DNA of 64,000 nucleotides from a phage: the sequence record PZ445489.1, one strand, 5' to 3'. This document shows, one piece after another, positions 14,504-43,374 of the stretch. The notes under the pieces were generated by a model. It was not told the origin of the DNA, made no database searches, and saw only the letters and a list, made by a program, of their open reading frames with translations. The translations under genes were made by a program, and so were the position numbers. The stretch's first letter is position 1. Every line of letters starts with the position of its first letter.

Positions 14504-14505
14504 AT

Positions 14506-27963: not shown

Positions 27964-28665
27964 ATGAAAGTAAAACCATTTGGTATGCTAGATATTGAAT
28001 CTCTAGGAACTCCGGGAGATTGTGGTACTACTCATATTGTAATGCCTTCTTTCGCTTTTGTGGCTATGCATGGGATTGATAAAGACCCTGATCTAGTGTT
28101 TGTTACTTTAGATGTACAAGATCAGCTTAATTCTGGAGCTAAAGTTACGGCATCTACTCTAGCATTCTGGATGGATCAAGCTAAACATAGCCCGTCTGCT
28201 ATCCACATTATGGAAGCTATGAAGGAACGTAATCCAAAACTGATTGCCTTCCAAAATGGTAAACATCATTGCACTAATAAACTCGGCTCTAACTATGCTG
28301 CCTTCTCTATGGCTAAAAACATTATGGAATTGGCTCTAGGCGACAATGCTTTGTACTATGGCAATGGCCCAGAGTTTGATATGACTATCTACTCTGCAAA
28401 TACGTTCCATGCTGGAACCAATGAAGAGGTAGTTCCGTGGAAATTCTGGAATTTGGGCAATGTTCGATCTCTTCGTAATCTCTGGATGCAAGCTGGATAC
28501 AGTTATAAGGCTCTAGAGACCGAAGGTATTAGCTGGGCAATAGCTAAAATGGAGAAGATGGACACTATTCGTTATGGGATCTATCCGGTTAAGCATGATC
28601 CTGCATTTGATGCCTTAGTTGAAAGCTATTGTGTTGCAGCTATGATCGAAAAAATGAAAATTTGA
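27964..28665 (+). CDS. putative DEDD-type 3'-5' exonuclease
   Basis: N-terminal FGMLDIESLG (exo motif I D.E), C-terminal H..AFDA (motif III-like). Confidence 0.45.
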   Translation: MKVKPFGMLDIESLGTPGDCGTTHIVMPSFAFVAMHGIDKDPDLVFVTLDVQDQLNSGAKVTASTLAFWMDQAKHSPSAIHIMEAMKERNPKLIAFQNGKHHCTNKLGSNYAAFSMAKNIMELALGDNALYYGNGPEFDMTIYSANTFHAGTNEEVVPWKFWNLGNVRSLRNLWMQAGYSYKALETEGISWAIAKMEKMDTIRYGIYPVKHDPAFDALVESYCVAAMIEKMKI

Positions 28666-29993: not shown

Positions 29994-30022
29994 TTGCTAA
30001 TTTACTAAATTATATGTATAAT
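29994..30022 (+). promoter_or_regulatory. early-type promoter
   Basis: TTGCTA-17-TATAAT. Confidence 0.55.
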
Positions 30023-30052: not shown

Positions 30053-30370
30053 ATGACTTTTCATATTTTGATTGATGATGTGCGTAATCTTCACGGAATG
30101 GACATTATCATTCGAACCCCAGAAGCCGCTGTCGAGTTTCTGAATAAAACTGATACCACAGGCCACTTCGTTTATATGGATAATGACTTGGCTGTAGATG
30201 GTATGGAAGGTTATCAAATTCTTCGTTTACTCTTAGAATTTGGGCAGAGACCAAAGAAAGTGGTACTAGTAACCTCGAACCCAGTAGCTAAGCAACATAT
30301 GCGTAATGATTTGCTTGACTTAGGGTACAAAGAAAACCCCAATCGTGTTGAATATGATTGGCAGGAGTAA
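30053..30370 (+). CDS. small protein with CheY-like receiver (REC) domain features
   Basis: ILIDD acidic pair, FVYMDNDL..DGMEGYQIL (phospho-acceptor-like Asp), KVVLVTSNP (conserved Thr/Ser), downstream Lys. Confidence 0.45.
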   Translation: MTFHILIDDVRNLHGMDIIIRTPEAAVEFLNKTDTTGHFVYMDNDLAVDGMEGYQILRLLLEFGQRPKKVVLVTSNPVAKQHMRNDLLDLGYKENPNRVEYDWQE

Positions 30371-30375: not shown

Positions 30376-30825
30376 ATGAAGGCAGCTTTGCTTTTAGTAG
30401 CTGCCCTTACCTTCAGCTTTAGTAGTCAGGCATCGCACGATGCAAAAGAAATAGATTGCATTGCTAAAAATATCTATTTCGAAAGTCGTGGTGAGGGCAT
30501 AAAGGGAATGACGGCGATTGCACACGTTACTAAAAACCGTGTAAACTCCGGTAAATTCCCAGATTCCTACTGTAAAGTAGTATATCAGTCTAACCAGTTC
30601 TCTTGGGTATCTAAGAGACCAAAAGTTGATAAAACTGATGAGGCTTGGCAAACCGCTAAGAATTTAGCTAGAGTGATATACTACGTTGATTTACCACAAG
30701 ATCCTACACATGGAGCACTATACTTCCATAGTGGTAAAGATAAACCTTACTGGACAAAGAAGTTTAAGAAAACAACTAAGATTAAGGGACATACGTTTTA
30801 TAAACCTGTTGTCACTAAAACTTAA
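30376..30825 (+). CDS. secreted SleB/CwlJ-family cell wall hydrolase-like protein
   Basis: Signal peptide MKAALLLVAALTFSFSSQA; NIYFESRGE...AIAHVTKNR characteristic of SleB-type hydrolase domain. Confidence 0.6.
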   Translation: MKAALLLVAALTFSFSSQASHDAKEIDCIAKNIYFESRGEGIKGMTAIAHVTKNRVNSGKFPDSYCKVVYQSNQFSWVSKRPKVDKTDEAWQTAKNLARVIYYVDLPQDPTHGALYFHSGKDKPYWTKKFKKTTKIKGHTFYKPVVTKT

Positions 30826-31544: not shown

Positions 31545-32356
31545 ATATTCATAAATTAGAGAACAGCGAGCCGATTACGCTGAACTTGTCTTAATGTAAG
31601 ATGCGTCGAGCACTAAGATTCGTTGAATAGAGTCGGTAGGTTAGTTGTAAAACTAGTACACAGGGGGCGGCAATCCCGGTTAGTGGCTAGAACGTGTAAA
31701 ATGAGGCGTCTGAAACCTCTCCCCTAAACTCTTCTCTAATTTATAAATAGTGGGGTGTGGAAATCACTTATGTAGTAACACTGCCGTCCTAGTATAATTG
31801 GTATTATCAAGCCGTAACTGGTGGAAGATATAGATTCGAATCCTACGGTCGGTAAGAACTGGATAACTGATGCTTTTAACGTAAAAGCTTCCGAGGTTAG
31901 TTGCGCACTGCCTAAACCACGCGGTAGTTGGTTCCAGGCTAACCAACCAGTCTGCTGAATAGTTTTATTACGATTTAACTATGTCCAGGCTAAAGAAGAA
32001 CTTTAGAAGGTATTCTAGGATAGTGAAGTTTTTTCTCCATATCGGAGTAGTTTTTCAAGCTATCCACAAAGTGGGAAATGCTGACATGAGAGATGTCACT
32101 AATGGTGCACAATAGCACAGGTAATTCGCGATAACTCCTGTTGAGTAGCAGCAAAAGGCGGGAAGTCATGACCCCAAGCCTAACCGAGTCCTCAATATAC
32201 CGCAGGACATAACCACTAAGTCACCCTGACTTAAACTGGAAAATAATAGACGTTACTGTATTTTGTCTTGAAATACTTAATGAGTGAGACTTATGACTCT
32301 CCCGGTATCGTCTGTATTTTTAAGAGTTTTTACGAGAGTTCTTAAAAATATTTAAA

Positions 32357-32431
32357 CGGGGTGTAGTCTAAGGGAGAGGCAGGAGTCTTCTAAATTCCTT
32401 TATGCAGGTTCGAATCCTGTCACCTCGGCCA
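32357..32431 (+). tRNA. tRNA-Arg (anticodon UCU)
   Basis: Acceptor CGGGGTG/CACCTCG, anticodon stem GGAGU/AUUCC loop CUUCUAA, T-arm GCAGG-TTCGAAT-CCTGT, encoded CCA. Confidence 0.7.
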
Positions 32432-32465
32432 ATTTTATTAACTGTAACTAAAACAAAGGAAATAT

Positions 32466-33413
32466 ATGTTTAATACTAAAAATATGAAAGAACTGACTTC
32501 TGAGCAGAAAGTAATTCGTACTATTAAACGTTGGGGTATTGGTGCTGTAGTTGGTTTAGCAGGCTTGATTCTAGCCTTTAATTCATATACTATTGTTTCT
32601 GATGGTACGGTTAAAACCCAAACATTTCTGGGTAAAGTAGATCCTAACCCAGTATTACCAGGTTTCCATCTTGTAAACCCATTTGCATCTTTCGACACTT
32701 TTAGTACAAAAGATATTGCTGTAAAATTAGATAAACTTCAGGTTCCTAGCCAGGATAAGTTTAAATCCACTGTTGACCTGACTGTTATGTTGCAGTTTGA
32801 TGGTTCTAAGGCACCAATTAACCGTATTAACGCAGGTACTCAGGATCAAGCGTTAGACAAATATGTAACTGAAAAATTACTGTCTACTATTCGTGAGTTT
32901 GGTAAGTCTGTACCTAAAGCACAAGATTTGTTTGATGCTAAAATTCAGGCTCAATTGCAAACTGCAATTCAACAGGAAGTTGAAGAGTATGCACGCCCAT
33001 ATGGTTACACAGTTAAGCAGGTATTCCTTCAGGATATTACTTTGCCACCGGTAATCATGGAACAGGTACAGAATACCAAAGTTCGTGAAGAACAGGTTAA
33101 TGCTGCTAAAGCTGAATTAGCTCGTGTTGAACAGGAAGCACAGCAAAAAGTTAAACAAGCAGAAGCAGATCGTGAAGCTCGCAACAACCAAGCTATCGCT
33201 AATGAACGTGACGCAGATGCTAAACTGTACGCAGCTAAGAAAGAAGCTGAAGCTAACGCCGCACTGCAACGTACCATTACTCCTGAGATGATTCGTTGGA
33301 AACAACTGGAAGTCGAAATGATTCGTGCTCAGAAATATCAAGGTGGTGTACCACAGACTGTGGTAGGTACTGGCTACGATGGTCAAATGATCATGGATAT
33401 GCGTAATAAATAA
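32466..33413 (+). CDS. SPFH/band-7 (prohibitin/HflK-like) membrane protein
   Basis: N-terminal TM segment, SPFH-like core, C-terminal Ala/Glu/Gln-rich coiled coil. Confidence 0.6.
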   Translation: MFNTKNMKELTSEQKVIRTIKRWGIGAVVGLAGLILAFNSYTIVSDGTVKTQTFLGKVDPNPVLPGFHLVNPFASFDTFSTKDIAVKLDKLQVPSQDKFKSTVDLTVMLQFDGSKAPINRINAGTQDQALDKYVTEKLLSTIREFGKSVPKAQDLFDAKIQAQLQTAIQQEVEEYARPYGYTVKQVFLQDITLPPVIMEQVQNTKVREEQVNAAKAELARVEQEAQQKVKQAEADREARNNQAIANERDADAKLYAAKKEAEANAALQRTITPEMIRWKQLEVEMIRAQKYQGGVPQTVVGTGYDGQMIMDMRNK

Positions 33414-33437
33414 TATCCGCATGTAACATCTGAAGTA

Positions 33438-33476
33438 AGCCCTGCGTTCCCTGGAGAGCGCAGGGCTTTTCTTTTA
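33438..33476 (+). terminator. rho-independent terminator
   Basis: AGCCCTGCG...CGCAGGGCT hairpin + TTTTCTTTT. Confidence 0.6.
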
Positions 33477-33486
33477 TCTTAAATAC

Positions 33487-33526
33487 AGAAAAGCCCCTAA
33501 GTCTTTCGACTAGGGGCTTTATTGTT
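33487..33526. terminator. bidirectional rho-independent terminator
   Basis: AAAAGCCCCTAAGTCTTTCGACTAGGGGCTTTATTGTTT: GC stem flanked by A-run and T-run. Confidence 0.6.
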
Positions 33527-33737
33527 TGGTTCTTCAGAACCACACTCTCGGTGTACAGCAACCACCCATACGGGAGGCCAATCTTGACTGAAAATCTACT
33601 CTAGGGGGCAGGATAAGAGTAGGCTTAAAGGCAAAGGGATTGAACGCCGGTATTTGTGTAAACATTGCTGGAGAGCAACAACGTGCTACAGGCATTGGGC
33701 AGCACGAAACAGGTTTTCTGCAACACATAATTTCTCC

Positions 33738-34154
33738 TTAGGAGTTATTACCACCATTTTGAGCTTTTGCAACTTGGCTTTGGCAGAAGCTATTAAACTT
33801 ACCCATAAGTGATACAAGCTGCTTCCCATCCTCTGTCTTTGCGAAGTCTTCGAAAAGGGCTAGTACTGCCTGTCCTTCCGCAGAAACCTGCGGTTGTTGG
33901 GTTTGCTGCTGAACTTGCTGCTGCGGCATCTGTTGTTGCATTTGTTGAGGCATTTGCGACTGCCCGCTCATTTGCTGCATCATTTGCATAGGACTCACAC
34001 TTCCAGGGTTTTGCTGGAGTTGTTGTTGCATCTGTTGCGCTTCTGCTAAACGCTGTTGCAATTGTTGTAAGTAGGGGTTATCCAGACCCGGAATGGGCTG
34101 CTGGGAGCCCATACTTTGATTAAGTCCGTTATTTACAAAACCATATTTACTCAT
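33738..34154 (-). CDS. glutamine-rich low-complexity protein (138 aa)
   Basis: ORF; long Q/M/P runs. Confidence 0.5.
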   Translation of the reverse strand: MSKYGFVNNGLNQSMGSQQPIPGLDNPYLQQLQQRLAEAQQMQQQLQQNPGSVSPMQMMQQMSGQSQMPQQMQQQMPQQQVQQQTQQPQVSAEGQAVLALFEDFAKTEDGKQLVSLMGKFNSFCQSQVAKAQNGGNNS

Positions 34155-34175
34155 AATGGGCTCCTCCCCTTAATA

Positions 34176-35158
34176 TTAAGCCGGCAGTTTAGCCTGCAGA
34201 CCAGCCAGAGTCTGAGTGATAGCACCAAGACTTACAGCGATTTGATTAATTACCTGACCGTTAGCACCGTTACCCGCAGCGATTGCTTCACGTAGGCGAC
34301 ATGCATCTAACTCATCCTGAATACGAGCAGTAGTTACACCAGCGATAGCAGTCTGAAGTTCACAGCAACATTCAGCGATCTGACGTTCCAGAGAGTTCTG
34401 GTTAGCACACATCTGAGCCTGAACAGCGGCAAACTGGTTATTAGTTTGTAAAGTCTGCTGGAAAGCGATCTGTGCAGAATCAAACTTATCTTGTGCACGA
34501 GCTATCTGATTAGCTGCGAAAGATTGATCAATCTGGCGAGAAAGATCGAACTGACCCTGAATAACGTTGCGAGTTTCCTGACAGATCTGATTAGACAGAT
34601 TAGCACCTGTACCATAGATCGTAGTTAGTACAGACTGAGTATCACGGCTCTGGTTTTGGGATGTCTGGCTAAACCCATTGTTAACTGCGCTTAAAACAGC
34701 TCCAGTACCCTGGTTAGCTTCTGTACGAGTAGTGTTAATAGCTGCTAGAATACTAGCGGTATCTTGGTTCTGAAGTACTGCATCAACTGCGGTACCATCA
34801 CCAACTACACCACGTCCACCGAATCCACCGAAACCACCGAATCCGCCTGTTAATAGAGCACCGATTAGGATAGCTCCGAATAGTCCCATACCTTCACCAC
34901 CGAAAGCACCTGCGTTTGCTGGGTAACCACCCAGTAGGCCAGGGAAGCCACTAGTAAATACGTTTACTGGTTCTTGCATTTTATGTTTTCCATATTTATG
35001 ACAATGTTCATCGTCATCTTCTTCATCATCGTGTTCACGATGTTTTTCTTCGTAGGCTCTGACCTTCTCCCACTTTTTCTTATCTGATTCCTCGTGACGG
35101 TGCAGTTCTGCTGCAACGCTAGCGACGGTCTCAGGACTCTTAGCTACTTCTTCTGTCA
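34176..35158 (-). CDS. glycine-zipper membrane protein with His/acidic N-terminus and Q/N/A-rich C-terminal region
   Basis: AGGAGGTG RBS then ATG at 35158-35156; GLFGAILIGALLTGGFGGFGGFGG segment. Confidence 0.5.
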
Positions 35159-35365
35159 TTTTTGACACCTCCTAGTATATAGAAAATGTGTGTCTCTTTG
35201 ATCACTCATCCATAACATATACTTTACACTACCCCAGCGAAAATGTCAAGGGGTCTTTAAAAATTGCCCCTGAATTTTTAGTGGGGTCACAAATTTTGGT
35301 CCTCACCACTTATCTGCTATCCTTAAGTGCCCTATGATTTTCCTCTAAAAAGTTAAAAAATTTGA

Positions 35366-35394
35366 TTGCTTGAATGCTAAATTCTCTGTATAAT
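35366..35394 (+). promoter_or_regulatory. early-type promoter
   Basis: AAAAATTTGATTGCTT-17-TATAAT + ATATCTATAAATTTGAAAGAGG. Confidence 0.55.
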
Positions 35395-35424
35395 ATATCT
35401 ATAAATTTGAAAGAGGAACCAAAT

Positions 35425-35943
35425 ATGAATGTTGATGAGCTAACACAGCACCTCTTATCTAGAGGATTTGATACAGATAAATATCATTGCTGGTTAAGTC
35501 CGGAAGGATGGCTAACAGTCCCGTTGTATGACTTCTCTGGGATGTTGAGGGGCTATCAAACTTATAATCCTTCTGCTCCAAAAGGTCATGGTAAGTGCCC
35601 CTTTGAAGCTAAATACTTTACTTATTCTACTACCCAGTGTGTATGGGGACTAGAAACTCTCAATGGAGATGAAAAAGTAGTATTGATTGCTGAATCTGTA
35701 TTTAAGGCAGTTGCGTTACATAATGCTGGTTATCCAGCCCTAGCAATGTTGGGTTCTTCTCCAGGAAAAGCGTTATTAAAGCAACTGAAATTACTACCTT
35801 TTAAATTGGTAGCTGTCGGAGATAATGATCCTGCGGGTGAAAAATTTGCTAGAAAATTAAACGGCTTTGTTTCTCCCGTAGATGTGGATGAGATGTCTAC
35901 CGAAAACTTGAAAAATTTTCTTGCTATGAAGCTAAATTTCTAA
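35425..35943 (+). CDS. standalone Toprim-domain protein
   Basis: VVLIAESVFKAV (Toprim Glu) and LVAVGDNDPAGEKFA (DxD) motifs; ATG 35425 with GAAAGAGGAA RBS. Confidence 0.55.
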   Translation: MNVDELTQHLLSRGFDTDKYHCWLSPEGWLTVPLYDFSGMLRGYQTYNPSAPKGHGKCPFEAKYFTYSTTQCVWGLETLNGDEKVVLIAESVFKAVALHNAGYPALAMLGSSPGKALLKQLKLLPFKLVAVGDNDPAGEKFARKLNGFVSPVDVDEMSTENLKNFLAMKLNF

Positions 35944-35964
35944 TATAATATATCTTATAAATTC

Positions 35965-36053
35965 GGAAGAATAGCATAACGGTATTGCAGCAGATTGCTA
36001 ATCTGTCGGTTTGAAATATAGCCTTGTGGGTTCGATTCCCGCTTCTTCCGCCA
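35965..36053 (+). tRNA. tRNA-Ser (GCU), type II
   Basis: Acceptor GGAAGAA/TTCTTCC, anticodon loop TTGCTAA, long variable arm, T-arm GTGGG-TTCGATT-CCCGC, CCA. Confidence 0.75.
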
Positions 36054-36059
36054 AATTCT

Positions 36060-36137
36060 GGTTCTCAAGCTCATATGGTATGAGCACCCGGCTCATAACC
36101 GGAAGGTACGTAGGTTCGAATCCTCGGGGAGCCACCA
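36060..36137 (+). tRNA. tRNA-like, anticodon CAU (Met/Ile2), imperfect T stem
   Basis: Acceptor GGTTCTC/GGGAGCC (2 GU), D stem GCTC/GAGC, anticodon loop CTCATAA, T loop TTCGAAT with 2 mismatches in stem. Confidence 0.45.
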
Positions 36138-36156
36138 AATTAAATAGAGGTCACAA

Positions 36157-36345
36157 ATGGATCTATATATAGTTTATGTTGTGTTTATCCAAGATAGAGA
36201 ATACCCGGATGAATATAAAAAAGGATATAGGTTAGCCAGAGCTACCTCTGAAGCCCAAGCTATGGATAAAGTGGCAGATTATATGATTACGGTAGAAAAC
36301 ATACACTATATCGACTACCTTGAAGCCTCAAAAGTAATTGACTAA
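36157..36345 (+). CDS. hypothetical protein (62 aa)
   Basis: ORF. Confidence 0.4.
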   Translation: MDLYIVYVVFIQDREYPDEYKKGYRLARATSEAQAMDKVADYMITVENIHYIDYLEASKVID

Positions 36346-36354
36346 GGAGACTAT

Positions 36355-36540
36355 ATGTCTAAGTTTCAAGAACTCAAGCAAGAGCTAGAAGAATGTGCCT
36401 GCCCTGAGTGTAGAGGAATTGGTGAAAGTTCTGATGCAGAAGCAGGAGATACTTTTTGCAATATCTGGGTTTGCCCAAATTGCAATGGTACAGGTATTAA
36501 TCCTAACTGTGGTATTTCCCTAGATATTGAACGAGGATAA
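36355..36540 (+). CDS. small zinc-ribbon protein (61 aa)
   Basis: CACPEC...CPNCNG. Confidence 0.45.
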   Translation: MSKFQELKQELEECACPECRGIGESSDAEAGDTFCNIWVCPNCNGTGINPNCGISLDIERG

Positions 36541-36641
36541 TACCTGTAAAACTAAAAGATTATTATATTGGTTGGTTTGTGGGACTAGTAGTAGGATTTT
36601 CACTAGGCTATAATATGTATCAACTAATAAACTGATTACAC

Positions 36642-36718
36642 GGGGGTGTAATCGAATTGGCATAGGTACTGGACTTAAAATTCAGGTTTTGTGGGTTCGA
36701 ATCCCACCACCCCTACCA
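36642..36718 (+). tRNA. tRNA-like, anticodon UAA (Leu-type anticodon on short-variable-arm scaffold), atypical D arm
   Basis: Acceptor GGGGGTG/CACCCCT, anticodon stem CTGGA/TTCAG loop CTTAAAA, T-arm GTGGG-TTCGAAT-CCCAC, disc A, CCA. Confidence 0.5.
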
Positions 36719-36893
36719 AACTAAGGAAATAAGATGTATAGACATCCACCTCCGCCAACACGTCGTTCTAGAGAAGTTATCCTCATGGAATTGACTAAAA
36801 ACTTCAAGGCAACTCTTGAAGATAGAGATCTAGGTACAGATGAAGACGTTGATTTCATTTGTAAACTATTAAAAATGAAGCTGGAGAAACATC

Positions 36894-37100
36894 ATGGCTA
36901 ACCGTGAAATTACTATGCAACGAATCATGACTAAAGGCATGATAGCCGAGGCAGGTATTGAACAAGAAGTAAAAGGCTATTACGAACAGATTAAGACTAT
37001 TATAGACTCTGCTAAAAACACCGGAGAAAAAGAACACGGTGCAGCAATTATGGCTATAACTCTTATTAGCCTAGACTTAGCTGAAGAATCTGGAGTTTAG
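36894..37100 (+). CDS. hypothetical protein (68 aa)
   Basis: ORF. Confidence 0.4.
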   Translation: MANREITMQRIMTKGMIAEAGIEQEVKGYYEQIKTIIDSAKNTGEKEHGAAIMAITLISLDLAEESGV

Positions 37101-37130
37101 CTCCTCCAAACAGAATTTTTAAAAATGTAC

Positions 37131-37160
37131 TTGCCTTTTGCTTTAAATTTCTGATATAAT
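37131..37160 (+). promoter_or_regulatory. early-type promoter
   Basis: TTGCCT-18-TATAAT. Confidence 0.5.
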
Positions 37161-37190
37161 AGTTGTATAAATTGATGAAGGAGTTAACGA

Positions 37191-37466
37191 ATGCAAAATC
37201 GTGTTGTAGCAACTGGTATTGAAAGTGCAATCTGCAAATCCTGGGAAGACTGGGAAGGTGAGATTGAGTGGCTCTATCTCTATAACGTAGATCTTCTACC
37301 GGAGGTTAAAGCTAAATGTATTGAAGCTGGCATGGCTCCAGATGCAAAAGCTGATATTGATATTTCAATGTCTGAACTTAAAGGTCGTGTAATTACTGTT
37401 AGTGATGAGGGCGAAGAAGTTTTCGAACTTCCGTTCTCCTTAACTGTCACTCCTAAGTTCGACTAA
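37191..37466 (+). CDS. hypothetical protein (91 aa)
   Basis: ORF with promoter and GAAGGAG RBS. Confidence 0.45.
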   Translation: MQNRVVATGIESAICKSWEDWEGEIEWLYLYNVDLLPEVKAKCIEAGMAPDAKADIDISMSELKGRVITVSDEGEEVFELPFSLTVTPKFD

Positions 37467-37503
37467 CTAATACAGCACTGAGCAAGTTCTTTAAAATTTG
37501 ACT

Positions 37504-37531
37504 TGCTCAGTGCCTTAAAACTTGGTATAAT
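37504..37531 (+). promoter_or_regulatory. early-type promoter driving tRNA sub-cluster
   Basis: TTGCTC-16-TATAAT. Confidence 0.5.
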
Positions 37532-37596
37532 ATTTACCTAATTTGGAAACATATTTAAAAGTGTTTAAATGAGAATTTTTGAATACTTCTAAATAT

Positions 37597-37687
37597 GTTG
37601 GATTAGTATCGTAGAGGTAGCGAAGCAGACTGTAAATCTGCCGACTCGGAAGGGTCTCGGGTGGTTCGACTCCATCATCCAACACCA
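37597..37687 (+). tRNA. tRNA-Tyr (GUA), type II
   Basis: Acceptor GTTGGAT/ATCCAAC, anticodon stem GCAGA/TCTGC loop CTGTAAA, long variable arm, T-arm GGTGG-TTCGACT-CCATC, CCA. Confidence 0.75.
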
Positions 37688-37694
37688 AATTTAA

Positions 37695-37771
37695 GTCCTG
37701 TTAGACAAACTGGTAAAGTCACTACCCTTTCAAGGTAGGATTTGCGGGTTCGATCCCCGCACAGGACGCCA
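37695..37771 (+). tRNA. tRNA-Glu (UUC)
   Basis: Acceptor GTCCTGT/ACAGGAC, anticodon stem CTACC/GGTAG loop CTTTCAA, T-arm GCGGG-TTCGATC-CCCGC, CCA. Confidence 0.75.
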
Positions 37772-37779
37772 ATTTCTGC

Positions 37780-37856
37780 ATTCCTAGAGTGTTACTGGAC
37801 AGCATGTCGGTCTCCAAAACCGTACGGTCTAGGTTCGAGTCCTAGTAGGTTTGCCA
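37780..37856 (+). tRNA. tRNA-like, anticodon CCA (Trp), acceptor stem with mismatches
   Basis: Anticodon loop CTCCAAA, T-arm CTAGG-TTCGAGT-CCTAG, 3' GCCA; acceptor pairing imperfect. Confidence 0.5.
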
Positions 37857-37862
37857 AAATTT

Positions 37863-37937
37863 GCACCTTTAGCTGAGATGGATTAGCGCTTGCCTGAAGA
37901 GCTTGAGAGGTTCGTTCGATACGAACAGGGTGCACCA
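37863..37937 (+). tRNA. tRNA-like, anticodon uncertain (possibly GAA, Phe)
   Basis: Acceptor GCACCTT/AGGGTGC, T-arm GTTCG-TTCGATA-CGAAC, CCA; anticodon stem poorly paired. Confidence 0.45.
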
Positions 37938-37954
37938 AATTGAAGGAGCTGCTG

Positions 37955-38227
37955 ATGCATCCTGAAAACTTCTTTATTTACTGCGCTGATAAGTCGCTAA
38001 AACGTAGAATTAACAAAGTCTACCATTATCGTGCTAGTCAACAGCCTTATGTATATGCTTTTGACGGTGATCACATTCCATTAGAACAATTATCTTGTGA
38101 TTACATGATATTAAAGAACTTTGACGAGACGAAGATCTCAAGCGTTCACAATCGGCAGAATCCATTAACGTGGAAATATAAGAAGAAAAAGAAAGGCATC
38201 AAATTCTTAAAAAATATAGTTGCTTAG
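37955..38227 (+). CDS. hypothetical protein (90 aa)
   Basis: ATG 37955 after AAGGAG. Confidence 0.45.
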   Translation: MHPENFFIYCADKSLKRRINKVYHYRASQQPYVYAFDGDHIPLEQLSCDYMILKNFDETKISSVHNRQNPLTWKYKKKKKGIKFLKNIVA

Positions 38228-38248
38228 TTTCCAAAAGTTCTGTATAAT
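38220..38248 (+). promoter_or_regulatory. early-type promoter
   Basis: TTGCTT-17-TATAAT. Confidence 0.55.
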
Positions 38249-38296
38249 AATTACATAAATTGAACTGGAGAAGCAACATGACAGAACAAGATAAAC

Positions 38297-38372
38297 CGAC
38301 CGTTGGCTGAATGGCTTAGGCGAAGGATTGCAAATCCTTTTTATGTGAGTTCAAATCTCATGCGGTCGTCCA
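38297..38372 (+). tRNA. tRNA-Cys (GCA)
   Basis: Acceptor CGACCGT/GCGGTCG, anticodon stem AAGGA/TCCTT loop TTGCAAA, T-arm GTGAG-TTCAAAT-CTCAT, CCA. Confidence 0.7.
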
Positions 38373-38379
38373 AATTTTA

Positions 38380-38462
38380 GGGTCGTTAGCCAAGCGGTTT
38401 GGCGGTGGACTGTTAATCCATGTCGAAAGACAACGTAGGTTCGAATCCTACACGGCCCGCCA
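38380..38462 (+). tRNA. tRNA-Asn (GUU) with extended variable region
   Basis: Acceptor GGGTCGT/ACGGCCC, anticodon loop CTGTTAA, T-arm GTAGG-TTCGAAT-CCTAC, CCA. Confidence 0.6.
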
Positions 38463-38564
38463 AATTCTGTGTAGAGTTAAGTAAACCGGTAGCCAACCAG
38501 CTATCATTGCTGACATCGAATTCAGCCACAGATACCATTTTCATTAATAACTGAGGAAACAAGC

Positions 38565-38750
38565 ATGTCCAAGAATGTAATTGCGCAGCTAGAAGTTCAT
38601 CGTGATAGCACTATCAACAATATTGAAGTTGAAAAGAAATACATCGAAGAACTTAAACATGATATACTAGTGAGTCTCAACCGTCTTAATGTACGAAAAG
38701 AGTTTCTTAAAGAACTTAATGCAGCTATTGAAAAACTCAAAGCTGAGTAA
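38565..38750 (+). CDS. hypothetical protein (61 aa)
   Basis: ORF with GAGGAAACAAGC RBS. Confidence 0.4.
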   Translation: MSKNVIAQLEVHRDSTINNIEVEKKYIEELKHDILVSLNRLNVRKEFLKELNAAIEKLKAE

Positions 38751-38759
38751 ATGAATTAT

Positions 38760-38836
38760 GCGACCGGGGCTGGCTTGGTAATGGTACTCCCCTGTCACGG
38801 GAGAGAATGTGGGTTCAAATCCCATCGGTCGCGCCA
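38760..38836 (+). tRNA. tRNA-Asp (GUC)
   Basis: Acceptor GCGACCG/CGGTCGC, anticodon stem CTCCC/GGGAG loop CTGTCAC, T-arm GTGGG-TTCAAAT-CCCAT, CCA. Confidence 0.8.
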
Positions 38837-38862
38837 AATTAATTTAGTATGAGAAATATGCT

Positions 38863-39210
38863 ATGATTAATGCTAAAGAAGAATTGTTACTTGCCCTAAA
38901 GAATACTAATTCTGAAGTTAAGTGTATTAAGATAGAATTCGGTTATTATGGAGACAAAGAAGTTTGGGTATTACCCGTAGGTTATACAGAAAAAGATATT
39001 GAAGATTTTCTAAATAATCTAGACTTTAAATATGATTCTGGTTTCGGTGGACAATTGCTTTATGGTAACGTATGGTTTACTGATGGAACTTGGTTAGAAC
39101 GTGGTGAATATGATGGTTCTGAATGGTGGGAATATAAGACTACACCAGCAATTCCAGAGGAATGCCGAACAATTAATGGTGAAGTAGATCGTACTTTACT
39201 ATTAAATTAA
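38863..39210 (+). CDS. hypothetical protein (115 aa)
   Basis: ORF. Confidence 0.5.
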   Translation: MINAKEELLLALKNTNSEVKCIKIEFGYYGDKEVWVLPVGYTEKDIEDFLNNLDFKYDSGFGGQLLYGNVWFTDGTWLERGEYDGSEWWEYKTTPAIPEECRTINGEVDRTLLLN

Positions 39211-39450
39211 CAAAATCTCAGTGCAGAACACGGAGCTAGCAATTCGGAAGTGCTGACTCATGATAAGCTGCCTATGTACTTGCGAAGCGGTCGTGTCCAA
39301 GACTCGGACTCTTGCACTGAAAACAATCAAACATTCTAGCGTGGTTGATGGGGAAACCAGCTTGGCTAGGGCAGAAGCTCGTTCGATTCGAGTGAAAGAA
39401 TGGTTCTCGTAAGTCCGCACAAGTGATAGCAGGTTCGAGTCCTGTCTAGA

Positions 39451-39642
39451 ATGACATATTCTGGAGGTTTTGTGAATTACAAAGAATTAGATCTTTTAGC
39501 AAATAAATTCACAGAGCTATCTGATAACGTTGTATCAAAGGACTCCAACATAGATAATTTTATTACTGAATATCGTGATGGTATAATCTCTAAACAAGAG
39601 TTGTTAGATAAAACGTATAAATATTTAAAGGGGTTCAGCTAA
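39451..39642 (+). CDS. hypothetical protein (63 aa)
   Basis: ORF. Confidence 0.4.
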   Translation: MTYSGGFVNYKELDLLANKFTELSDNVVSKDSNIDNFITEYRDGIISKQELLDKTYKYLKGFS

Positions 39643-39953
39643 ACGGTTAAGCACTGTCCTACTTCGGACAGAGGGAGTAACACGTAGTCTCCCAAACTCC
39701 CCCAAATTTAGATTTCTGCTTCCTAGAGAACGGACTTCTGAATAAACAAGGCGATGAAGTTTCCGGCCGGTTCTAGTCGCTAAAGTCCCTCTAACGGGGC
39801 GTAAGTAAATGAAAGTTTACTTATTATGTAGGTTCCGATAGATCGGCGGGTCTATTCTGGCATTTAAGAGAGGTCTCGCAAACTTCTTTGTCAGCCGTGG
39901 GGTTGGTAGCCTCCAGGTGGCCTACACAATAAGTAAATTTATTAAAAATTCAT

Positions 39954-39982
39954 TTGCTATTCTGCTATATTATCTGTATAAT
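39954..39982 (+). promoter_or_regulatory. early-type promoter
   Basis: TTGCTA-17-TATAAT. Confidence 0.55.
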
Positions 39983-40014
39983 ATATTTTATAAAGTGAAG
40001 AGAAGGAAAGCAAA

Positions 40015-40173
40015 ATGAAACACAAGATAGCTCAAGTTTTTATGACATTATGGTGTATGCCAATAGCTATAACAGCATTTAATCTAGATACTTTTACTAT
40101 AGAAGAAAAATGTATCGGATTAGTTAGCGGCTTTAGTATGCTGGGCTTATCTTTGTTGTGGTTGAAGAAATAA
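40015..40173 (+). CDS. small hydrophobic protein (52 aa, not in ORF track)
   Basis: ATG after GAGAAGGAAAG RBS and promoter; two hydrophobic segments. Confidence 0.35.
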   Translation: MKHKIAQVFMTLWCMPIAITAFNLDTFTIEEKCIGLVSGFSMLGLSLLWLKK

Positions 40174-40177
40174 TATT

Positions 40178-40255
40178 CTCCGTGTAGCTCAGTTTGGCCA
40201 GAGCGTTTCGTTTGGGGCGATAGGGTCGGGGGTTCAAATCCTCCCACGGAGACCA
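40178..40255 (+). tRNA. tRNA-Pro (UGG)
   Basis: Acceptor CTCCGTG/CACGGAG, D stem GCTC/GAGC, anticodon loop TTTGGGG, T-arm GGGGG-TTCAAAT-CCTCC, CCA. Confidence 0.7.
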
Positions 40256-40261
40256 AACAAT

Positions 40262-40339
40262 TGCGGGTTAGATCTCTGGTAGAGATCGCTAGTCTCATAA
40301 GCTAGAAAGAGGTAGGTTCGATTCCTGCACCCGCTTCCA
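40262..40339 (+). tRNA. tRNA with anticodon CAU (Met/fMet/Ile2)
   Basis: Anticodon stem CTAGT/GCTAG loop CTCATAA, T-arm GTAGG-TTCGATT-CCTGC, CCA. Confidence 0.6.
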
Positions 40340-40359
40340 CTTTAATAGAGGATTTCGAA

Positions 40360-40527
40360 ATGAAAGTATTTCGATTAGTAGTAAGTGACAAACGTTTAGG
40401 TAATAATACCTCAAGATCCTTACTTGCACATTATGGTAAAAATTGGGATGAAGTAATGGCAGAGTTTAATACTAATCACCCTTACTTGAAAGTTCACTCT
40501 ATTAAAGAGGTATATAATGGTTACTAA
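40360..40527 (+). CDS. small hypothetical protein (55 aa, not in ORF track)
   Basis: ATG 40360 between tRNAs. Confidence 0.3.
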   Translation: MKVFRLVVSDKRLGNNTSRSLLAHYGKNWDEVMAEFNTNHPYLKVHSIKEVYNGY

Positions 40528-40528
40528 T

Positions 40529-40606
40529 AGATCGCTAGCTCAACTGGATAAGAGTAGCGGACCTTTAATCCGTCAGTTCTGGGTTCGAATCCCAGGCGAT
40601 CTACCA
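40529..40606 (+). tRNA. tRNA-Lys (UUU), C at position 33
   Basis: Acceptor AGATCGC/GCGATCT, anticodon stem GCGGA/TCCGT loop CCTTTAA, T-arm CTGGG-TTCGAAT-CCCAG, CCA. Confidence 0.6.
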
Positions 40607-40610
40607 AATT

Positions 40611-40684
40611 GCTCGGTTAGTTTAATGGGAGAACCCCGTCTTTACACGGCGGTTGTGATAGTTCGATTCTATCACCGAGTACCA
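40611..40684 (+). tRNA. tRNA-like with non-canonical anticodon loop (identity unclear)
   Basis: Acceptor GCTCGGT/ACCGAGT, T-arm GATAG-TTCGATT-CTATC, CCA; anticodon region CCGT-CTTTAC-ACGG (6-nt loop). Confidence 0.45.
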
Positions 40685-40703
40685 ATTAACTCAAAATAAG
40701 GAA

Positions 40704-41072
40704 TTGCAAATGCAATTATCAAACAAGATTCAAGGTTATTTCGGTCATGTGACAATGGAGTTCGCATTGCAGCATGGCTGGGATATGGAAAAAGATCTAT
40801 CGGAATTTTATGAGTCTCATAAAGAGATTGATCTTAGTTCTGTCTATTTGGGATTATCTACTGGTCAAGAACTTACAGAATATGATGTATTCAAGGCAAG
40901 TCAAGGTGAGATAACACCTAGTTTTGCCGAGTTCTGGCTAGGAATTACCTTGAAGGATAATGCACCAGATGAAGGTGTGGTTATGCAAAGTATGCACTCT
41001 GGAAGCTCTGATTACCTTTACGTTCGTGATGTAAAGGAACTACAGGAAATCGCTAAAAATGTACTTGCTTAA
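40704..41072 (+). CDS. hypothetical protein (122 aa)
   Basis: ORF with RBS AAGGAATTG. Confidence 0.5.
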   Translation: MQMQLSNKIQGYFGHVTMEFALQHGWDMEKDLSEFYESHKEIDLSSVYLGLSTGQELTEYDVFKASQGEITPSFAEFWLGITLKDNAPDEGVVMQSMHSGSSDYLYVRDVKELQEIAKNVLA

Positions 41073-41093
41073 TGCTTAATTTCTTGTTATAAT
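41065..41093 (+). promoter_or_regulatory. early-type promoter
   Basis: TTGCTT-17-TATAAT. Confidence 0.55.
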
Positions 41094-41432
41094 ATTTATA
41101 TAAATTGATGCGAAAATAGCTGCCTAGATACCAGGTGTATGACGTCTACACTAGCAGAGCTACCGAAAAAGAGATCCTCAGGATAAACGTCGTAGCAAAA
41201 TTAGTCTGGTATCCATCAATTTAGTTCACTAAGGTATTAGCTCGACCTAGGACTGGCTGCCAAAAAGCACGATCCCTACAATTCGGGAGAAGTTCTAGAT
41301 TAGTCCACTAGATTCAGCGGCAACTGAATAGTGTATCGGGTTTGCGAGATGACGCAGTTCCTTCCGCTCGAAGCGAAGGTGCTGTAGTTACGCCGAGCTA
41401 ATAGCCTTAGTAAACTTACAGGGGTTAACGCA

Positions 41433-41819
41433 GTGTGTACAAAAACATGTAGAGCCTGTGGGAATGAATATCCGTTAACAACCGAATATTTTTATTCGAA
41501 TGGATTTACTCCTAATGGCACAAAGAAGTGGAAGCCAACATGTAAAGCATGTGAAAAAGCTGAACGAGTAGCTGGACATGAAGAATTAATTAAAGAAGTA
41601 TTTCCTGTATTAGAATGTAGTATTTGTGGATATAATAGGTGTAAACAAGCCCTAGATTTCCACCGTACTAATCCAGAAGAAAAGGAATACTCCATTGCAA
41701 GGTTTAGAACTTCTCGTAGAAACAGAGAAGTAGTAATAGCAGAACTTAAAAAGTGCGTACTATTATGCTCTAACTGCCATAGAGAAGTACATGCTGGATT
41801 AATAAATTTGGGCGAATAG
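41433..41819 (+). CDS. HNH endonuclease
   Basis: C-terminal CVLLCSNCHREVHAG HNH motif plus CxxC pairs; GTG start per ORF track; 3' end overlaps tRNA-Ala. Confidence 0.65.
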   Translation: MCTKTCRACGNEYPLTTEYFYSNGFTPNGTKKWKPTCKACEKAERVAGHEELIKEVFPVLECSICGYNRCKQALDFHRTNPEEKEYSIARFRTSRRNREVVIAELKKCVLLCSNCHREVHAGLINLGE

Positions 41820-41884
41820 TGTCAGCGGGAGCACACCAGACTTGCAATCTGGTAGGGAGGGTTCGAGTCCCTCTTTGTCCACCA
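41810..41884 (+). tRNA. tRNA-Ala (UGC)
   Basis: Acceptor GGGCGAA/TTTGTCC (2 GU), D stem GTGT/ACAC, anticodon stem CCAGA/TCTGG loop CTTGCAA, T-arm GAGGG-TTCGAGT-CCCTC, CCA. Confidence 0.65.
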
Positions 41885-41889
41885 AATAC

Positions 41890-41966
41890 GCGTGATTGAT
41901 GGAATTGGCATACATACCGTCCTTAGAAGTCGGGTTTTGAGGGTTCGAATCCCTTGTCACGCACCA
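41890..41966 (+). tRNA. tRNA-like, anticodon UAG (Leu-type) on short-variable-arm scaffold; paralog of 36642 element
   Basis: Acceptor GCGTGAT/GTCACGC, loop CTTAGAA, T-arm GAGGG-TTCGAAT-CCCTT, CCA; shares GAATTGGCATA D-region with 36642 tRNA. Confidence 0.5.
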
Positions 41967-42078
41967 AATTTGATGGTCAGAGTAAATTAAACCTACTATC
42001 TCGGTTGAGCTGTTTTAATGGGTTCGAATCCCAGCGAGGCGTAACTGCCTGGTGTGATAGAGGCATCATCTTATTATT

Positions 42079-42169
42079 GGAAGAGCAAATCGAATTGGCG
42101 ACGAAAACCGCTTGGAAAGTGGCTGACTGGTAAAACGGCTTGAGAGTTCAAATCTCTCCTCTTCCGCCA
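42079..42169 (+). tRNA. type II tRNA, probably Ser (GGA)
   Basis: Acceptor GGAAGAG/CTCTTCC, T-arm GAGAG-TTCAAAT-CTCTC, CCA, 91 nt; anticodon loop assignment TTGGAAA tentative. Confidence 0.55.
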
Positions 42170-42175
42170 AATAAT

Positions 42176-42265
42176 AGAAGATAGGACGTAGTGGTACGTA
42201 ACTGGTCTTGAAAACCAGCCCGCTGTAGCGATACGGTGATGGTTCGACTCCATTATCTTCTGCCA
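42176..42265 (+). tRNA. tRNA-Ser (UGA), type II
   Basis: Acceptor AGAAGAT/ATCTTCT, anticodon stem CTGGT/ACCAG loop CTTGAAA, long variable arm, T-arm GATGG-TTCGACT-CCATT, CCA. Confidence 0.75.
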
Positions 42266-42285
42266 ATTAGCTATAAGGAAACCTT

Positions 42286-42459
42286 ATGAGCAAAACAGTT
42301 ACTGTAACAATGAAGGATGGCAAAAAATTTAAAGCATGTCTTCATGAAACAGATAAGGGATGGATGGCTTACTTGCCACACCTAGATTCCACCGGGTATG
42401 GAATGACCCAACGTGAAGCTATTGTTGATGCTTTAAATGAGGCTTCTGCTGGTTTATAA
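42286..42459 (+). CDS. small hypothetical protein (57 aa, not in ORF track)
   Basis: ATG after AAGGAAACC RBS. Confidence 0.35.
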   Translation: MSKTVTVTMKDGKKFKACLHETDKGWMAYLPHLDSTGYGMTQREAIVDALNEASAGL

Positions 42460-42828
42460 AAAATTCTTGAAGTATGCCGGAATCGGTAGACGGGGCTGCC
42501 TAAAAGGTTTATAGGGAACATCCACTCCCTGCAACATACCTCATAAAGCGGCTGAGATAAATGGTCTATCTCGTGAAGGTTCAAGTCCTTCTGCTTCTTG
42601 ATACATCTATGGCTCAAAGTGTAACGGTGCTATTTGATGCTCTTGGTAAGACTTCCCCGACATGCGTTCGGGAGTAAGCTGCTAAGACTAGAGTAGAAGA
42701 GTTTCTGAGAGCCGCCACAATTGAAAATTCGTACTCGTCTTGAGCTGCGTGCAATAGGAGATAACTTGATTAGTATTCTAGAACATGCTAATTGAGGAAG
42801 GTTTCGCTAACCCTGCGAGTTTTCAATT

Positions 42829-42905
42829 GTGGCTATATCATAATTGGTTAATGATCCTGATTGTGAATCAGGCCTATGTGGATTCGAATTCCACTAGCCA
42901 CCCCA
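42829..42905 (+). tRNA. tRNA-His (GUG)
   Basis: Acceptor GTGGCTA/TAGCCAC, anticodon stem CCTGA/TCAGG loop TTGTGAA, T-arm GTGGA-TTCGAAT-TCCAC, CCA. Confidence 0.75.
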
Positions 42906-42930
42906 AATTAACTTAAATAGGAAATAAAAT

Positions 42931-43137
42931 ATGGCTGATTTCTGCAAACAATGCTCCATTGATATGTGGGGCAGAGATACTGGTGATCTTTCTGGTTTGA
43001 TTACAGAAGCTGAGGTCAAAGAAGGTTATGGTGTAGTTGTGGTTTGCGAAGGGTGCGGAGTTATTCGAGTAGATCATGAAGGCAAACGTTTAGAAGATCC
43101 AAAAAGTATTAAGAAGAAGGTTAGCCAAGTCGGTTAA
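42931..43137 (+). CDS. hypothetical Cys-rich protein (68 aa); 3' end overlaps tRNA-Gln
   Basis: CKQC...CEGCG; RBS AGGAAATAAAAT. Confidence 0.4.
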   Translation: MADFCKQCSIDMWGRDTGDLSGLITEAEVKEGYGVVVVCEGCGVIRVDHEGKRLEDPKSIKKKVSQVG

Positions 43138-43190
43138 GGCTGGGGTCTCTGAAACCCCGATCAGTGGTTCGAACCCACTACCTTCTGCCA
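43115..43190 (+). tRNA. tRNA-Gln (CUG)
   Basis: Acceptor AGAAGGT/ACCTTCT, anticodon stem GGGGT/ACCCC loop CTCTGAA, T-arm AGTGG-TTCGAAC-CCACT, CCA. Confidence 0.7.
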
Positions 43191-43196
43191 AACAGT

Positions 43197-43274: not shown

Positions 43275-43282
43275 AACAATAA

Positions 43283-43357: not shown

Positions 43358-43374
43358 AACTTTAAGGGAACATT

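What the first reader, a model, noticed from the sequence alone, without database searches (positions are those of the whole stretch)
30053..30370. Standalone CheY-like receiver domain protein
The 105-aa product shows the receiver-domain pattern: N-terminal acidic pair (LIDD), a central Asp in YMDNDL followed by DGMEGYQIL, a conserved Thr/Ser in VVLVTSNP and a downstream Lys. A phage-encoded single-domain response regulator could act as a phosphate sink or decoy for host two-component systems. It is adjacent to a secreted SleB-like cell-wall hydrolase.
Basis: partly seen in the sequence, partly recalled or inferred. Interest (0 to 1): 0.5.

Follow-up and report, generated by a model that had tools for sequence, protein, structure and literature searches.

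The report
Phage cREC receiver-like protein, not CheY
This 105-residue T5-like phage protein has a stripped-down CheY-like fold but belongs to the already described, still untested cREC family, which sits beside phage tRNA genes and RNA-repair enzymes rather than two-component signalling genes.

The parts
30053..30370 (+). cREC-family gene (105 aa). Codons of the receiver-equivalent catalytic residues: D8-D9 30074-30079, D43-N44-D45 30179-30187, T74-S75-N76 30272-30280. Family-specific invariants: R11 and R21.
29994..30022 (+). Sigma-70-like promoter candidate (TTGCTA-17-TATAAT) in the 442-bp gap upstream of the gene; GAGG ribosome-binding site at 30044-30047.
   Evidence: It is a consensus match only, and the number of such sites in the region is not above the shuffle expectation. 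RBS read.
30376..30825 (+). SleB-like secreted cell-wall hydrolase (Hydrolase_2), 5 nt downstream and probably co-transcribed. A functional link to cREC is doubtful.
   Evidence: PF07486 E 2.2e-25; 3 kb from cREC in My1; adjacent in reverse order in L024
30894..31507 (+). DUF7616 (30894-31064) and a YqeY/GatB-like protein (31064-31507, PHROG 'tRNA amidotransferase'), in the same apparent transcription unit.
   Evidence: The YqeY Pfam hit is below the gathering score (25.4 against 27); PHROG 1460 E 4.3e-47.
31783..31854 (+). Sub-threshold tRNA-like element, annotated 'tRNA-OTHER' in NBSal005.
   Evidence: Rfam RF00005 22.3 bits against a gathering score of 29, E 0.2; not called by ARAGORN
32357..44467 (+). 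Array of 23 tRNA genes on the same strand as cREC, starting 2 kb downstream. This is the proposed substrate pool.
   Evidence: ARAGORN; the cREC-tRNA array linkage recurs in unrelated phages
15172..15996 (-). Sir2-family protein. Proposed partner, 14 kb away on the opposite strand.
   Evidence: PF02146 E 1.9e-25. The homolog lies 1.7 kb from cREC in Vibrio phage D479 and next to cREC in L054. The SP15-type sirtuin system is described in PMC9503650.
14506..15012 (-). HAD 'Swiss-army-knife' RNA-repair phosphatase (HAD_SAK_2). Proposed partner.
   Evidence: PF18143 E 3.9e-20; a homolog lies about 3.8 kb from cREC in L035
55348..55938 (+). 196-aa calcineurin-like metallophosphoesterase, homologous to the most recurrent cREC neighbour in other phages. 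Proposed partner.
   Evidence: HMM built from six cREC-neighbour proteins against the window, E 4.7e-17; ORF; annotated 'phosphoesterase' in NBSal005
27964..28665 (+). DEDD-type exonuclease with an Rv2179c-like 3'-5' exoribonuclease domain, upstream in the same block.
   Evidence: PF16473 E 1.1e-7; PHROG 255 E 9e-52; syntenic in My1

Best explanation
The gene encodes a stand-alone member of the cREC family (PF20274). This is a minimised, histidine-kinase-independent offshoot of the receiver fold: five strands, three helices, no alpha1 and no alpha5. Shown here: the family membership; the receiver-like fold; retention of the acidic pocket (D8, D9, D43) and T74 at the C-terminal edge of the sheet; extra family-invariant residues R11, R21, D45 (two residues after the would-be phospho-Asp) and N76; the absence of a conserved Lys; a phage-restricted distribution; and physical linkage to phage tRNA arrays and RNA end-processing or ligation genes. 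Inferred: it is an enzyme rather than a switch. It would use D43 as the nucleophile for an aspartyl-phosphate intermediate and D45 as general acid/base, like the DxD motif of HAD phosphatases including T4 Pnkp. The two arginines would hold a nucleotide or RNA phosphate. It would open or remove 2',3'-cyclic, 2'- or 3'-phosphates on tRNAs cut by host anticodon nucleases. This would be one healing step alongside the phage Sir2, HAD_SAK and metallophosphoesterase, with sealing presumably left to a host ligase such as RtcB, because I found no RtcB or Rnl homolog in this window. My estimates: cREC membership about 0.97; not a two-component signalling receiver about 0.9; phosphoesterase in tRNA/RNA end-healing about 0.5.
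Against: No member of the family has been assayed (PMC9503650; nothing newer found). In this genome the proposed partners are 14-25 kb away, not adjacent. About half of the sampled loci (15 of 29) show neither tRNAs nor a recognisable repair gene, and phage tRNA arrays are general depots for small accessory ORFs, so linkage could partly reflect location rather than function. I had no random-gene control. The binomial p of 3e-4 rests on an assumed 12% background. I could not inspect model coordinates, so active-site geometry is inferred from secondary-structure positions only. A 105-aa protein with one exposed sheet face may need oligomerisation or a partner to be active. RtcB can seal 2',3'-cyclic phosphate ends directly, so the need for a separate cyclic phosphodiesterase is not obvious.
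Confidence: 0.55

Rival explanations
1. One reading: a canonical CheY-like single-domain response regulator. It would be phosphorylated on D43 by host histidine kinases or acetyl phosphate and act as a phosphate sink or decoy for host two-component systems.
For: The receiver-like fold; D8/D9/D43/T74 occupy the canonical positions; 5 of 70 relatives weakly match PF00072. The acidic pocket could in principle accept phosphate from small donors.
Against: No PF00072 hit for this protein. No receiver hit by PDB sequence search. Helices alpha1 and alpha5 are missing. No conserved Lys. Zero histidine kinase or HPt genes in about 45 neighbourhoods. The family is reported never to occur with kinases (PMC7824862). 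Its extra invariant residues (R11, R21, D45, N76) are unexplained by a decoy role.
Confidence: 0.05
2. A small-molecule phosphodiesterase. It would degrade cyclic-phosphate ADP-ribose derivatives (Appr>p made by Sir2/KptA-type enzymes) or host immune nucleotide signals (cADPR isomers, cyclic nucleotides), so it would be an NAD/ADPr-network or anti-defence enzyme rather than an RNA-end healer.
For: This is the alternative substrate proposed by the family's describers, who also report Nudix fusions (PMC7824862, PMC9503650). Sir2 is adjacent in D479 and L054 and present in this genome. One neighbourhood carries the Thoeris inhibitor Tad3. Many loci are blocks of small early ORFs typical of anti-defence regions.
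Against: Embedding inside tRNA arrays and linkage to RtcB, RNA ligase, PNKP and Thg1 point to RNA substrates. No PADLOC-related signal. No Nudix or Macro neighbour appeared in my sample lists.
Confidence: 0.2
3. A non-catalytic adaptor or regulator. The receiver-like pocket would bind a phosphorylated ligand or RNA end, and the exposed sheet face would dock onto another phage or host protein to modulate it.
For: Very small size, and one face of the sheet is left bare by the loss of alpha1 and alpha5. Receiver folds are classic switches. The T5-like subfamily has lost two otherwise common family residues: G47 is A, and the C-terminal K/R is Q.
Against: Near-absolute conservation of a full set of acidic, Thr, Asn and Arg residues across <=50%-identical members looks catalytic. 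There are no informative fusions to output domains; nearly all members are stand-alone.
Confidence: 0.12
4. A functional partner of the adjacent secreted SleB-like cell-wall hydrolase, for example controlling its expression or activity.
For: The genes are 5 nt apart here. A second, otherwise unrelated phage contig (L024) has the two genes adjacent.
Against: The order is reversed and the cREC is frameshifted in L024. The genes are 3 kb apart in My1. No hydrolase appears in the other roughly 40 neighbourhoods. cREC has no signal peptide, whereas the hydrolase appears to be exported.
Confidence: 0.03

Closest known systems
cREC / cRec domain (Pfam PF20274 cREC_REC; Iyer, Anantharaman, Krishnan, Burroughs & Aravind 2021, PMC7824862; Iyer et al. 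2022, PMC9503650)
   Same: Scores well above the family threshold. It has the family motifs DD.R / D..IR / D[HN]DL[GA] / G / [TS].NP / GY. It is stand-alone, phage-borne and not linked to a histidine kinase, and it co-occurs with Sir2, HAD and metallophosphoesterase RNA-repair genes.
   Different: Nothing essential. The T5-like subfamily has N44 instead of the commoner H, A47 instead of G, and Q104 where most members have K/R. Its partners are dispersed in the genome rather than adjacent. The 2022 paper lists the SP15-type (T5-like) sirtuin neighbourhood with HAD only and does not mention a cREC for it.
Canonical two-component receiver domains (CheY, Spo0F; Pfam PF00072)
   Same: Flavodoxin-like fold with parallel sheet; acidic pair after beta1, Asp after beta3, Thr/Ser after beta4, Gly at the start of alpha3, and a GY in beta5.
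   Different: No significant sequence match; alpha1 and alpha5 absent; no conserved Lys; extra invariant R11, R21, D45 and N76; no kinase partner; phage-restricted.
T4 polynucleotide kinase-phosphatase (Pnkp) 3'-phosphatase domain and other HAD DxDxT phosphatases (named from established knowledge)
   Same: Proposed chemistry: an Asp nucleophile with a second Asp two residues later (D43-x-D45), a Thr/Ser and an acidic metal-binding pair. Proposed biology: healing of nuclease-cut tRNA ends for a phage.
   Different: Different fold register (the motif follows beta3, not beta1), no cap domain, no kinase module, and no experimental support. This is a resemblance in how it may work, not membership.
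2H phosphoesterases (LigT, CPDase) and the RtcA/RtcB system
   Same: [quoted passage not shown] RtcB is a recurrent cREC neighbour.
   Different: Unrelated folds and catalytic residues.

Membership tests
cREC (PF20274) | Profile match above Pfam's gathering score over the whole domain | tested here: met
   54.8 bits against 27, E 1.5e-14, profile positions 2-86 of 88; all 70 diverse homologs also match
cREC (PF20274) | Receiver-related Rossmannoid fold with conserved aspartates at the receiver active-site positions | tested here: met
cREC (PF20274) | Never associated with histidine kinases; mostly in phages or prophages | tested here: met
   No HisKA, HATPase_c, Hpt or Response_reg among neighbours in 8 metagenomic and 29 IMG/VR loci, in the top-25 family lists shown. 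494 phage records carry it. Only 8 hits, all on MAG contigs, in 185,579 species genomes, using a restrictive pattern.
cREC (PF20274) | Genomic association with RNA-repair or NAD/ADPr-processing genes | tested here: met
   Family level: metallophosphoesterase 6/29, RtcB 3/29, RNA ligase in 3 loci, HAD_SAK, HAD_PNKP, Thg1, Sir2. In this genome Sir2, HAD_SAK_2 and the MPE are present but 14-25 kb away, so the association is genomic rather than adjacent here.
cREC (PF20274) | Cyclic-phosphate phosphoesterase activity (the function the name asserts) | not testable with these tools
   The describers state that it is experimentally uncharacterised (PMC9503650). No later assay was found.
Canonical receiver (Response_reg PF00072) | Match to the PF00072 profile | tested here: not met
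   No hit at E<=10 for this protein. Only 5 of 70 relatives give weak hits, best E 8.8e-5. hhalign of the family profile against E. coli CheY gives probability 1.3%.
Canonical receiver (Response_reg PF00072) | (beta-alpha)5 topology including alpha1 and alpha5, the kinase/HPt docking surface | tested here: not met
Canonical receiver (Response_reg PF00072) | Conserved quintet Asp-Asp, Asp, Thr/Ser, Lys | tested here: not met
   The four acidic and Thr positions are conserved. The Lys is not: the position aligned to CheY K109 is N95 and is variable, and K80 and K93 are variable.
Canonical receiver (Response_reg PF00072) | Phosphorylation by a cognate kinase or by small phosphodonors | not testable with these tools
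   Needs a biochemical assay
HAD phosphatases (considered only as a mechanistic analogue) | DxD(x)T motif I at the end of beta1 of a HAD Rossmannoid fold with squiggle and flap | tested here: not met
   D43-N44-D45 follows beta3 of a receiver-like fold. No HAD Pfam hit. The structural neighbours are receivers, not HAD proteins.

The most novel reading that the evidence does not exclude
cREC is a previously unassayed class of RNA end-healing enzyme built on the receiver fold. It would form an aspartyl-phosphate on D43 to open or remove 2',3'-cyclic or terminal phosphates on nuclease-cut tRNAs. Phages would keep it inside their tRNA arrays as part of a counter-defence against anticodon nucleases, so tRNA replacement and tRNA repair would be one integrated genomic module.
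Probability: 0.3. Interest if true: 0.6.

Novelty: already known. Interest (0 to 1): 0.3.

Why it matters
As a classification this is settled and ordinary: the protein is a known Pfam family member in a well-sequenced phage group. Its value is as a test case. The cREC family has at least 3,291 clusters at 90% identity and is found in T5-like, KVP40-like and many uncultured phages, yet it has never been assayed. T5-like phages are genetically tractable and are already the model for tRNA-based evasion of PARIS, retron and anticodon-nuclease defences. The tight co-orientation of cREC with tRNA arrays and its recurrence with RtcB, RNA ligases and end-healing phosphoesterases give a concrete, testable hypothesis. 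If it is correct, a receiver fold would be shown acting as an RNA-repair enzyme, and a repair arm would be added to the phage tRNA counter-defence story.

Tried and rejected
I used it only for residue register.
- PDB sequence search with the family profile: only chance-level resolvase hits.
- NCBIfam: no model. PADLOC: no hit for cREC, Sir2, HAD_SAK, YqeY-like or the exonuclease.
- Fusion partners: the only second domain was HNH_3 in P0033, which is probably a homing endonuclease read-through. The other long members had no second Pfam domain.
- The search for related loci with the 70-sequence alignment failed because it was too diverse. I replaced it with the LVTSNPVGR/DHDLG sub-alignment A3, which biases the sample toward one large subfamily.
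- Literature searches for cREC experiments, DUF2828 and T5 transcriptomes gave nothing usable.
- 12 of 70 members weakly hit NACHT (best E 0.0028). I judged this a spurious hhhhDD (Walker-B-like) match.
- I rejected the idea that the neighbouring SleB-like gene is the phage's lysin. By annotation of the 99%-identical NBSal005, a separate holin-endolysin pair lies about 21 kb downstream.
- I could not obtain model coordinates, so I did not measure residue clustering in 3D.

Full report
**1. What is in the sequence**

The ORF 30053-30370 (+) encodes the 105-aa protein MTFHILIDDVRNLHGMDIIIRTPEAAVEFLNKTDTTGHFVYMDNDLAVDGMEGYQILRLLLEFGQRPKKVVLVTSNPVAKQHMRNDLLDLGYKENPNRVEYDWQE. It has an ATG start, GAGG 5 nt upstream, and a 442-bp non-coding gap before it that holds a TTGCTA-17-TATAAT promoter-like site. 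The window is a T5-like phage (Demerecviridae, Tequintavirus). The 29-32 kb segment is 99.2% identical to phage NBSal005 and 98.9% to phage SP15, and 450 phage records match it. Proteins 100% identical to this one are already deposited.

**2. Family**

- Pfam gives PF20274 cREC_REC, "cyclic-phosphate processing receiver domain": E 1.5e-14, 54.8 bits against a gathering score of 27, covering positions 2-86 of 88. There is no PF00072 Response_reg hit even at E<=10.
- PHROG 1479 (unknown function) matches at 1.5e-29. NCBIfam has nothing.
- Some GenBank and UniRef entries already carry the cREC name.
- An exhaustive profile search of 1.84 billion representatives finds 441 at E<=1e-3. Almost all are stand-alone proteins of 97-125 aa. 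The indexed search finds at least 3,291 clusters at 90% identity, and every listed one carries only PF20274.
- All 70 diverse members hit PF20274. Five also hit PF00072 weakly, best E 8.8e-5, which supports distant homology to true receivers.

**3. Literature**

cREC was defined by Iyer et al. 2021 (PMC7824862) and revisited in 2022 (PMC9503650). They describe it as a divergent Rec domain that is never found with histidine kinases. It keeps the catalytic aspartates and is linked to RNA ligases, Nudix, 2H, sirtuins and WYL. They predict that it resolves 2',3'-cyclic phosphates on RNA or 1''-2'' cyclic ADPr phosphate, and they say explicitly that it is experimentally uncharacterised. I found no later assay. 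The 2022 paper names phage SP15, a near-identical relative of this window, as the prototype of a sirtuin + HAD "Swiss-army-knife" RNA-repair neighbourhood. It does not mention a cREC for that type.

**4. Structure**

- AlphaFold2 on a 17-sequence alignment gives pLDDT 91 and pTM 0.85. Strands are 4-7, 18-20, 39-42, 69-72 and 100-102; helices are 23-32, 53-62 and 77-89.
- Foldseek agrees but only weakly: best E 3.5e-3, TM about 0.55.
- So the fold is receiver-like but reduced. The stretch that would be alpha1 is a 10-residue loop carrying invariant R11, and there is no alpha5.
- In canonical receivers alpha1 and the beta5-alpha5 loop make the kinase/HPt docking surface (established knowledge).

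**5. Conserved residues**

Over 144 representatives that share <=50% identity:

| Position (query numbering) | Count out of 144 |
|---|---|
| D8 | 142 |
| D9 | 142 |
| R11 | 135, plus 7 K |
| D17 | 127 |
| R21 | 141, plus 3 K |
| D43 | 144 |
| position 44 | H 87, N 50 |
| D45 | 143 |
| G47 | 135 (A in the query) |
| G53 | 143 |
| P67 | 134 |
| T/S74 | 143 |
| N76 | 141 |
| Y92 | 128 |
| K/R near position 104 | 114 (Q in the query) |

- All the invariant polar residues follow strands beta1-beta4, at the C-terminal edge of the sheet, where this fold class places its active sites.
- A weak but in-register hhalign alignment maps D43 to CheY D57, G53 to G65, T74 to T87 and G91-Y92 to G105-Y106. It places CheY K109 on the variable N95.
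- The D43-x-D45 arrangement resembles HAD motif I, with a nucleophile and an acid/base two residues later. This is my inference, not a tested property.

**6. Context in this genome**

- Upstream to downstream on the + strand: RNase H, DUF7022, a DEDD exonuclease with an Rv2179c-like exoribonuclease domain, PHROG 1491, cREC, the SleB-like hydrolase, DUF7616 and a YqeY/GatB-like protein.
- These are followed by a sub-threshold tRNA-like element and then 23 tRNA genes at 32357-44467.
- On the opposite strand, 14 kb upstream, lie Sir2 (15172-15996) and HAD_SAK_2 (14506-15012).
- 25 kb downstream lies a 196-aa calcineurin-like phosphoesterase (55348-55938).
- No RtcB or Rnl homolog was found in the window by tblastn with the neighbour proteins.

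**7. Context elsewhere**

- In Pectobacterium phage My1, from another Demerecviridae subfamily, cREC lies next to RNase H, 3 kb from the SleB-like gene, but still in the RNase H-to-tRNA block.
- In KVP40-like Vibrio jumbo phages (Straboviridae, about 36% identity), one strand of D479 carries 16 tRNAs, a 226-aa ORF, Sir2, six small ORFs, cREC, three ORFs and then a DUF2828/DUF7788 "RNA-binding" protein. ValKK3 has 9 tRNAs 4-6.5 kb upstream, and DUF2828 plus an RNaseH_like DUF458 downstream.
- Eight metagenomic contigs (33-46% identity) are all phage accessory regions without kinases. One has an RNA ligase, one has the metallophosphoesterase (L005, found by tblastn) plus a faint RlaP hit, and two have tRNAs.
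- A scan of IMG/VR gave 36 loci, 29 of them non-redundant, and all match a cREC profile:
  - 11 of 29 have tRNAs within 5 kb and 5 of 29 within 500 bp.
  - cREC lies inside the array in six loci.
  - All 125 tRNAs are on cREC's strand.
  - tRNA density is 0.45 per kb at 0-1 kb against 0.044 per kb at 8-10 kb.
- A census of 267 neighbouring ORFs gave:
  - a small metallophosphoesterase family in 6 of 29 loci, with the motifs D.H / GD / GNHD / H / GH.H;
  - RtcB in 3 of 29, best E 3e-114;
  - HAD_SAK_2, HAD_PNKP with AAA_33, Thg1, DUF2828 (2 loci) and Band_7.
- tblastn added RNA ligases in L017 and L035.
- 10 of 29 loci carry at least one RNA end-processing or ligation gene, and 14 of 29 carry that and/or tRNAs.
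- Only 8 loci, all on MAG contigs, turned up in 185,579 species genomes, with a restrictive search pattern. One has Sir2 next to cREC and one has three co-oriented tRNAs.

**8. Interpretation**

- Membership in cREC is secure, and the protein is not a canonical two-component receiver.
- The best-supported function is the one already predicted for the family: phosphoesterase chemistry on cyclic or terminal phosphates.
- My survey shifts the weight toward tRNA substrates. cREC is repeatedly embedded, co-oriented, in phage tRNA arrays and recurs with RtcB, RNA ligases and end-healing phosphoesterases.
- T5-family tRNAs are documented counter-measures to tRNA-cleaving defences (PMC11464382, PMC10264068, PMC11555353), and T4 repairs PrrC-cut tRNA with Pnkp and Rnl1 (PMC10264068).
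- Caveats:
  - There is no biochemistry on any family member.
  - The partners are dispersed in this genome.
  - tRNA arrays are accessory-gene depots, and I had no random-gene control.
  - The A3 search pattern biases the sample toward one subfamily.
  - Active-site geometry was not inspected in 3D.

**9. Verdict**

The two-component decoy interpretation is not supported. The classification is already in the public databases and literature, so this counts as already known. Residual interest comes from the untested function and from the tRNA-array linkage quantified here.

Noticed in passing
window 30376-30825 (+); L024 9477-10222: The SleB-like Hydrolase_2 protein has a signal-peptide-like N-terminus (MKAALLLVAALTFSFSSQA). 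It is separate from the phage's holin-endolysin pair, which the 99%-identical NBSal005 record places roughly 21 kb downstream (about window 51-52.6 kb, not verified directly). A SleB-like gene is also directly adjacent to a frameshifted cREC in the otherwise unrelated contig L024, in the reverse order.
   Followed up: partly
window 13673-15996 (-): A cluster of Sir2 (PF02146), a 60-aa ORF, HAD_SAK_2 (PF18143) and two paralogous DUF7415 proteins. This is the SP15-type predicted sirtuin RNA-repair neighbourhood of PMC9503650.
   Followed up: partly
window 54184-55938 (+): Two calcineurin-like phosphoesterases sit almost side by side: a NinI/lambda-phosphatase-like protein (54184-55059) and a 196-aa phosphoesterase (55348-55938). 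The second is homologous to the commonest cREC neighbour in other phages.
   Followed up: partly
window 31783-31854 (+): A degenerate tRNA-like element: Rfam tRNA 22.3 bits (below the gathering score of 29), not called by ARAGORN, annotated 'tRNA-OTHER' in NBSal005. It lies between the YqeY-like gene and the first bona fide tRNA.
   Followed up: partly
window 29994-30022 and 31516-31544 (+): The same promoter-like hexamer pair (TTGCTA-17-TATAAT) lies in the intergenic gaps before cREC and after the YqeY-like gene, which suggests a discrete four-gene transcription unit. These are consensus matches only.
   Followed up: no
window 32466-33413 (+); L035 7427-8317; one further IMG/VR locus: A Band_7/SPFH protein recurs within a few kb of cREC in at least three lineages. 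I have no explanation.
   Followed up: no
P0033 (273 aa); Salmonella phage Kenya-K44 38582-38878: In some T5-like phages an HNH_3 homing-endonuclease domain is fused to, or annotated across, the cREC gene. This suggests homing-endonuclease insertion immediately upstream.
   Followed up: no
window 33738-34154 (-): A 138-aa glutamine-rich, low-complexity ORF lies on the opposite strand inside the tRNA region. It is annotated as hypothetical in NBSal005.
   Followed up: no
L017 10001-19041; L035 6681-12687: Two uncultured-phage contigs carry what look like complete RNA-repair cassettes around cREC. L017 has 8 tRNAs, cREC, metallophosphoesterase, RNA ligase and DUF2828. L035 has cREC, Band_7, metallophosphoesterase, HAD_SAK_2 and RNA ligase.
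   Followed up: partly
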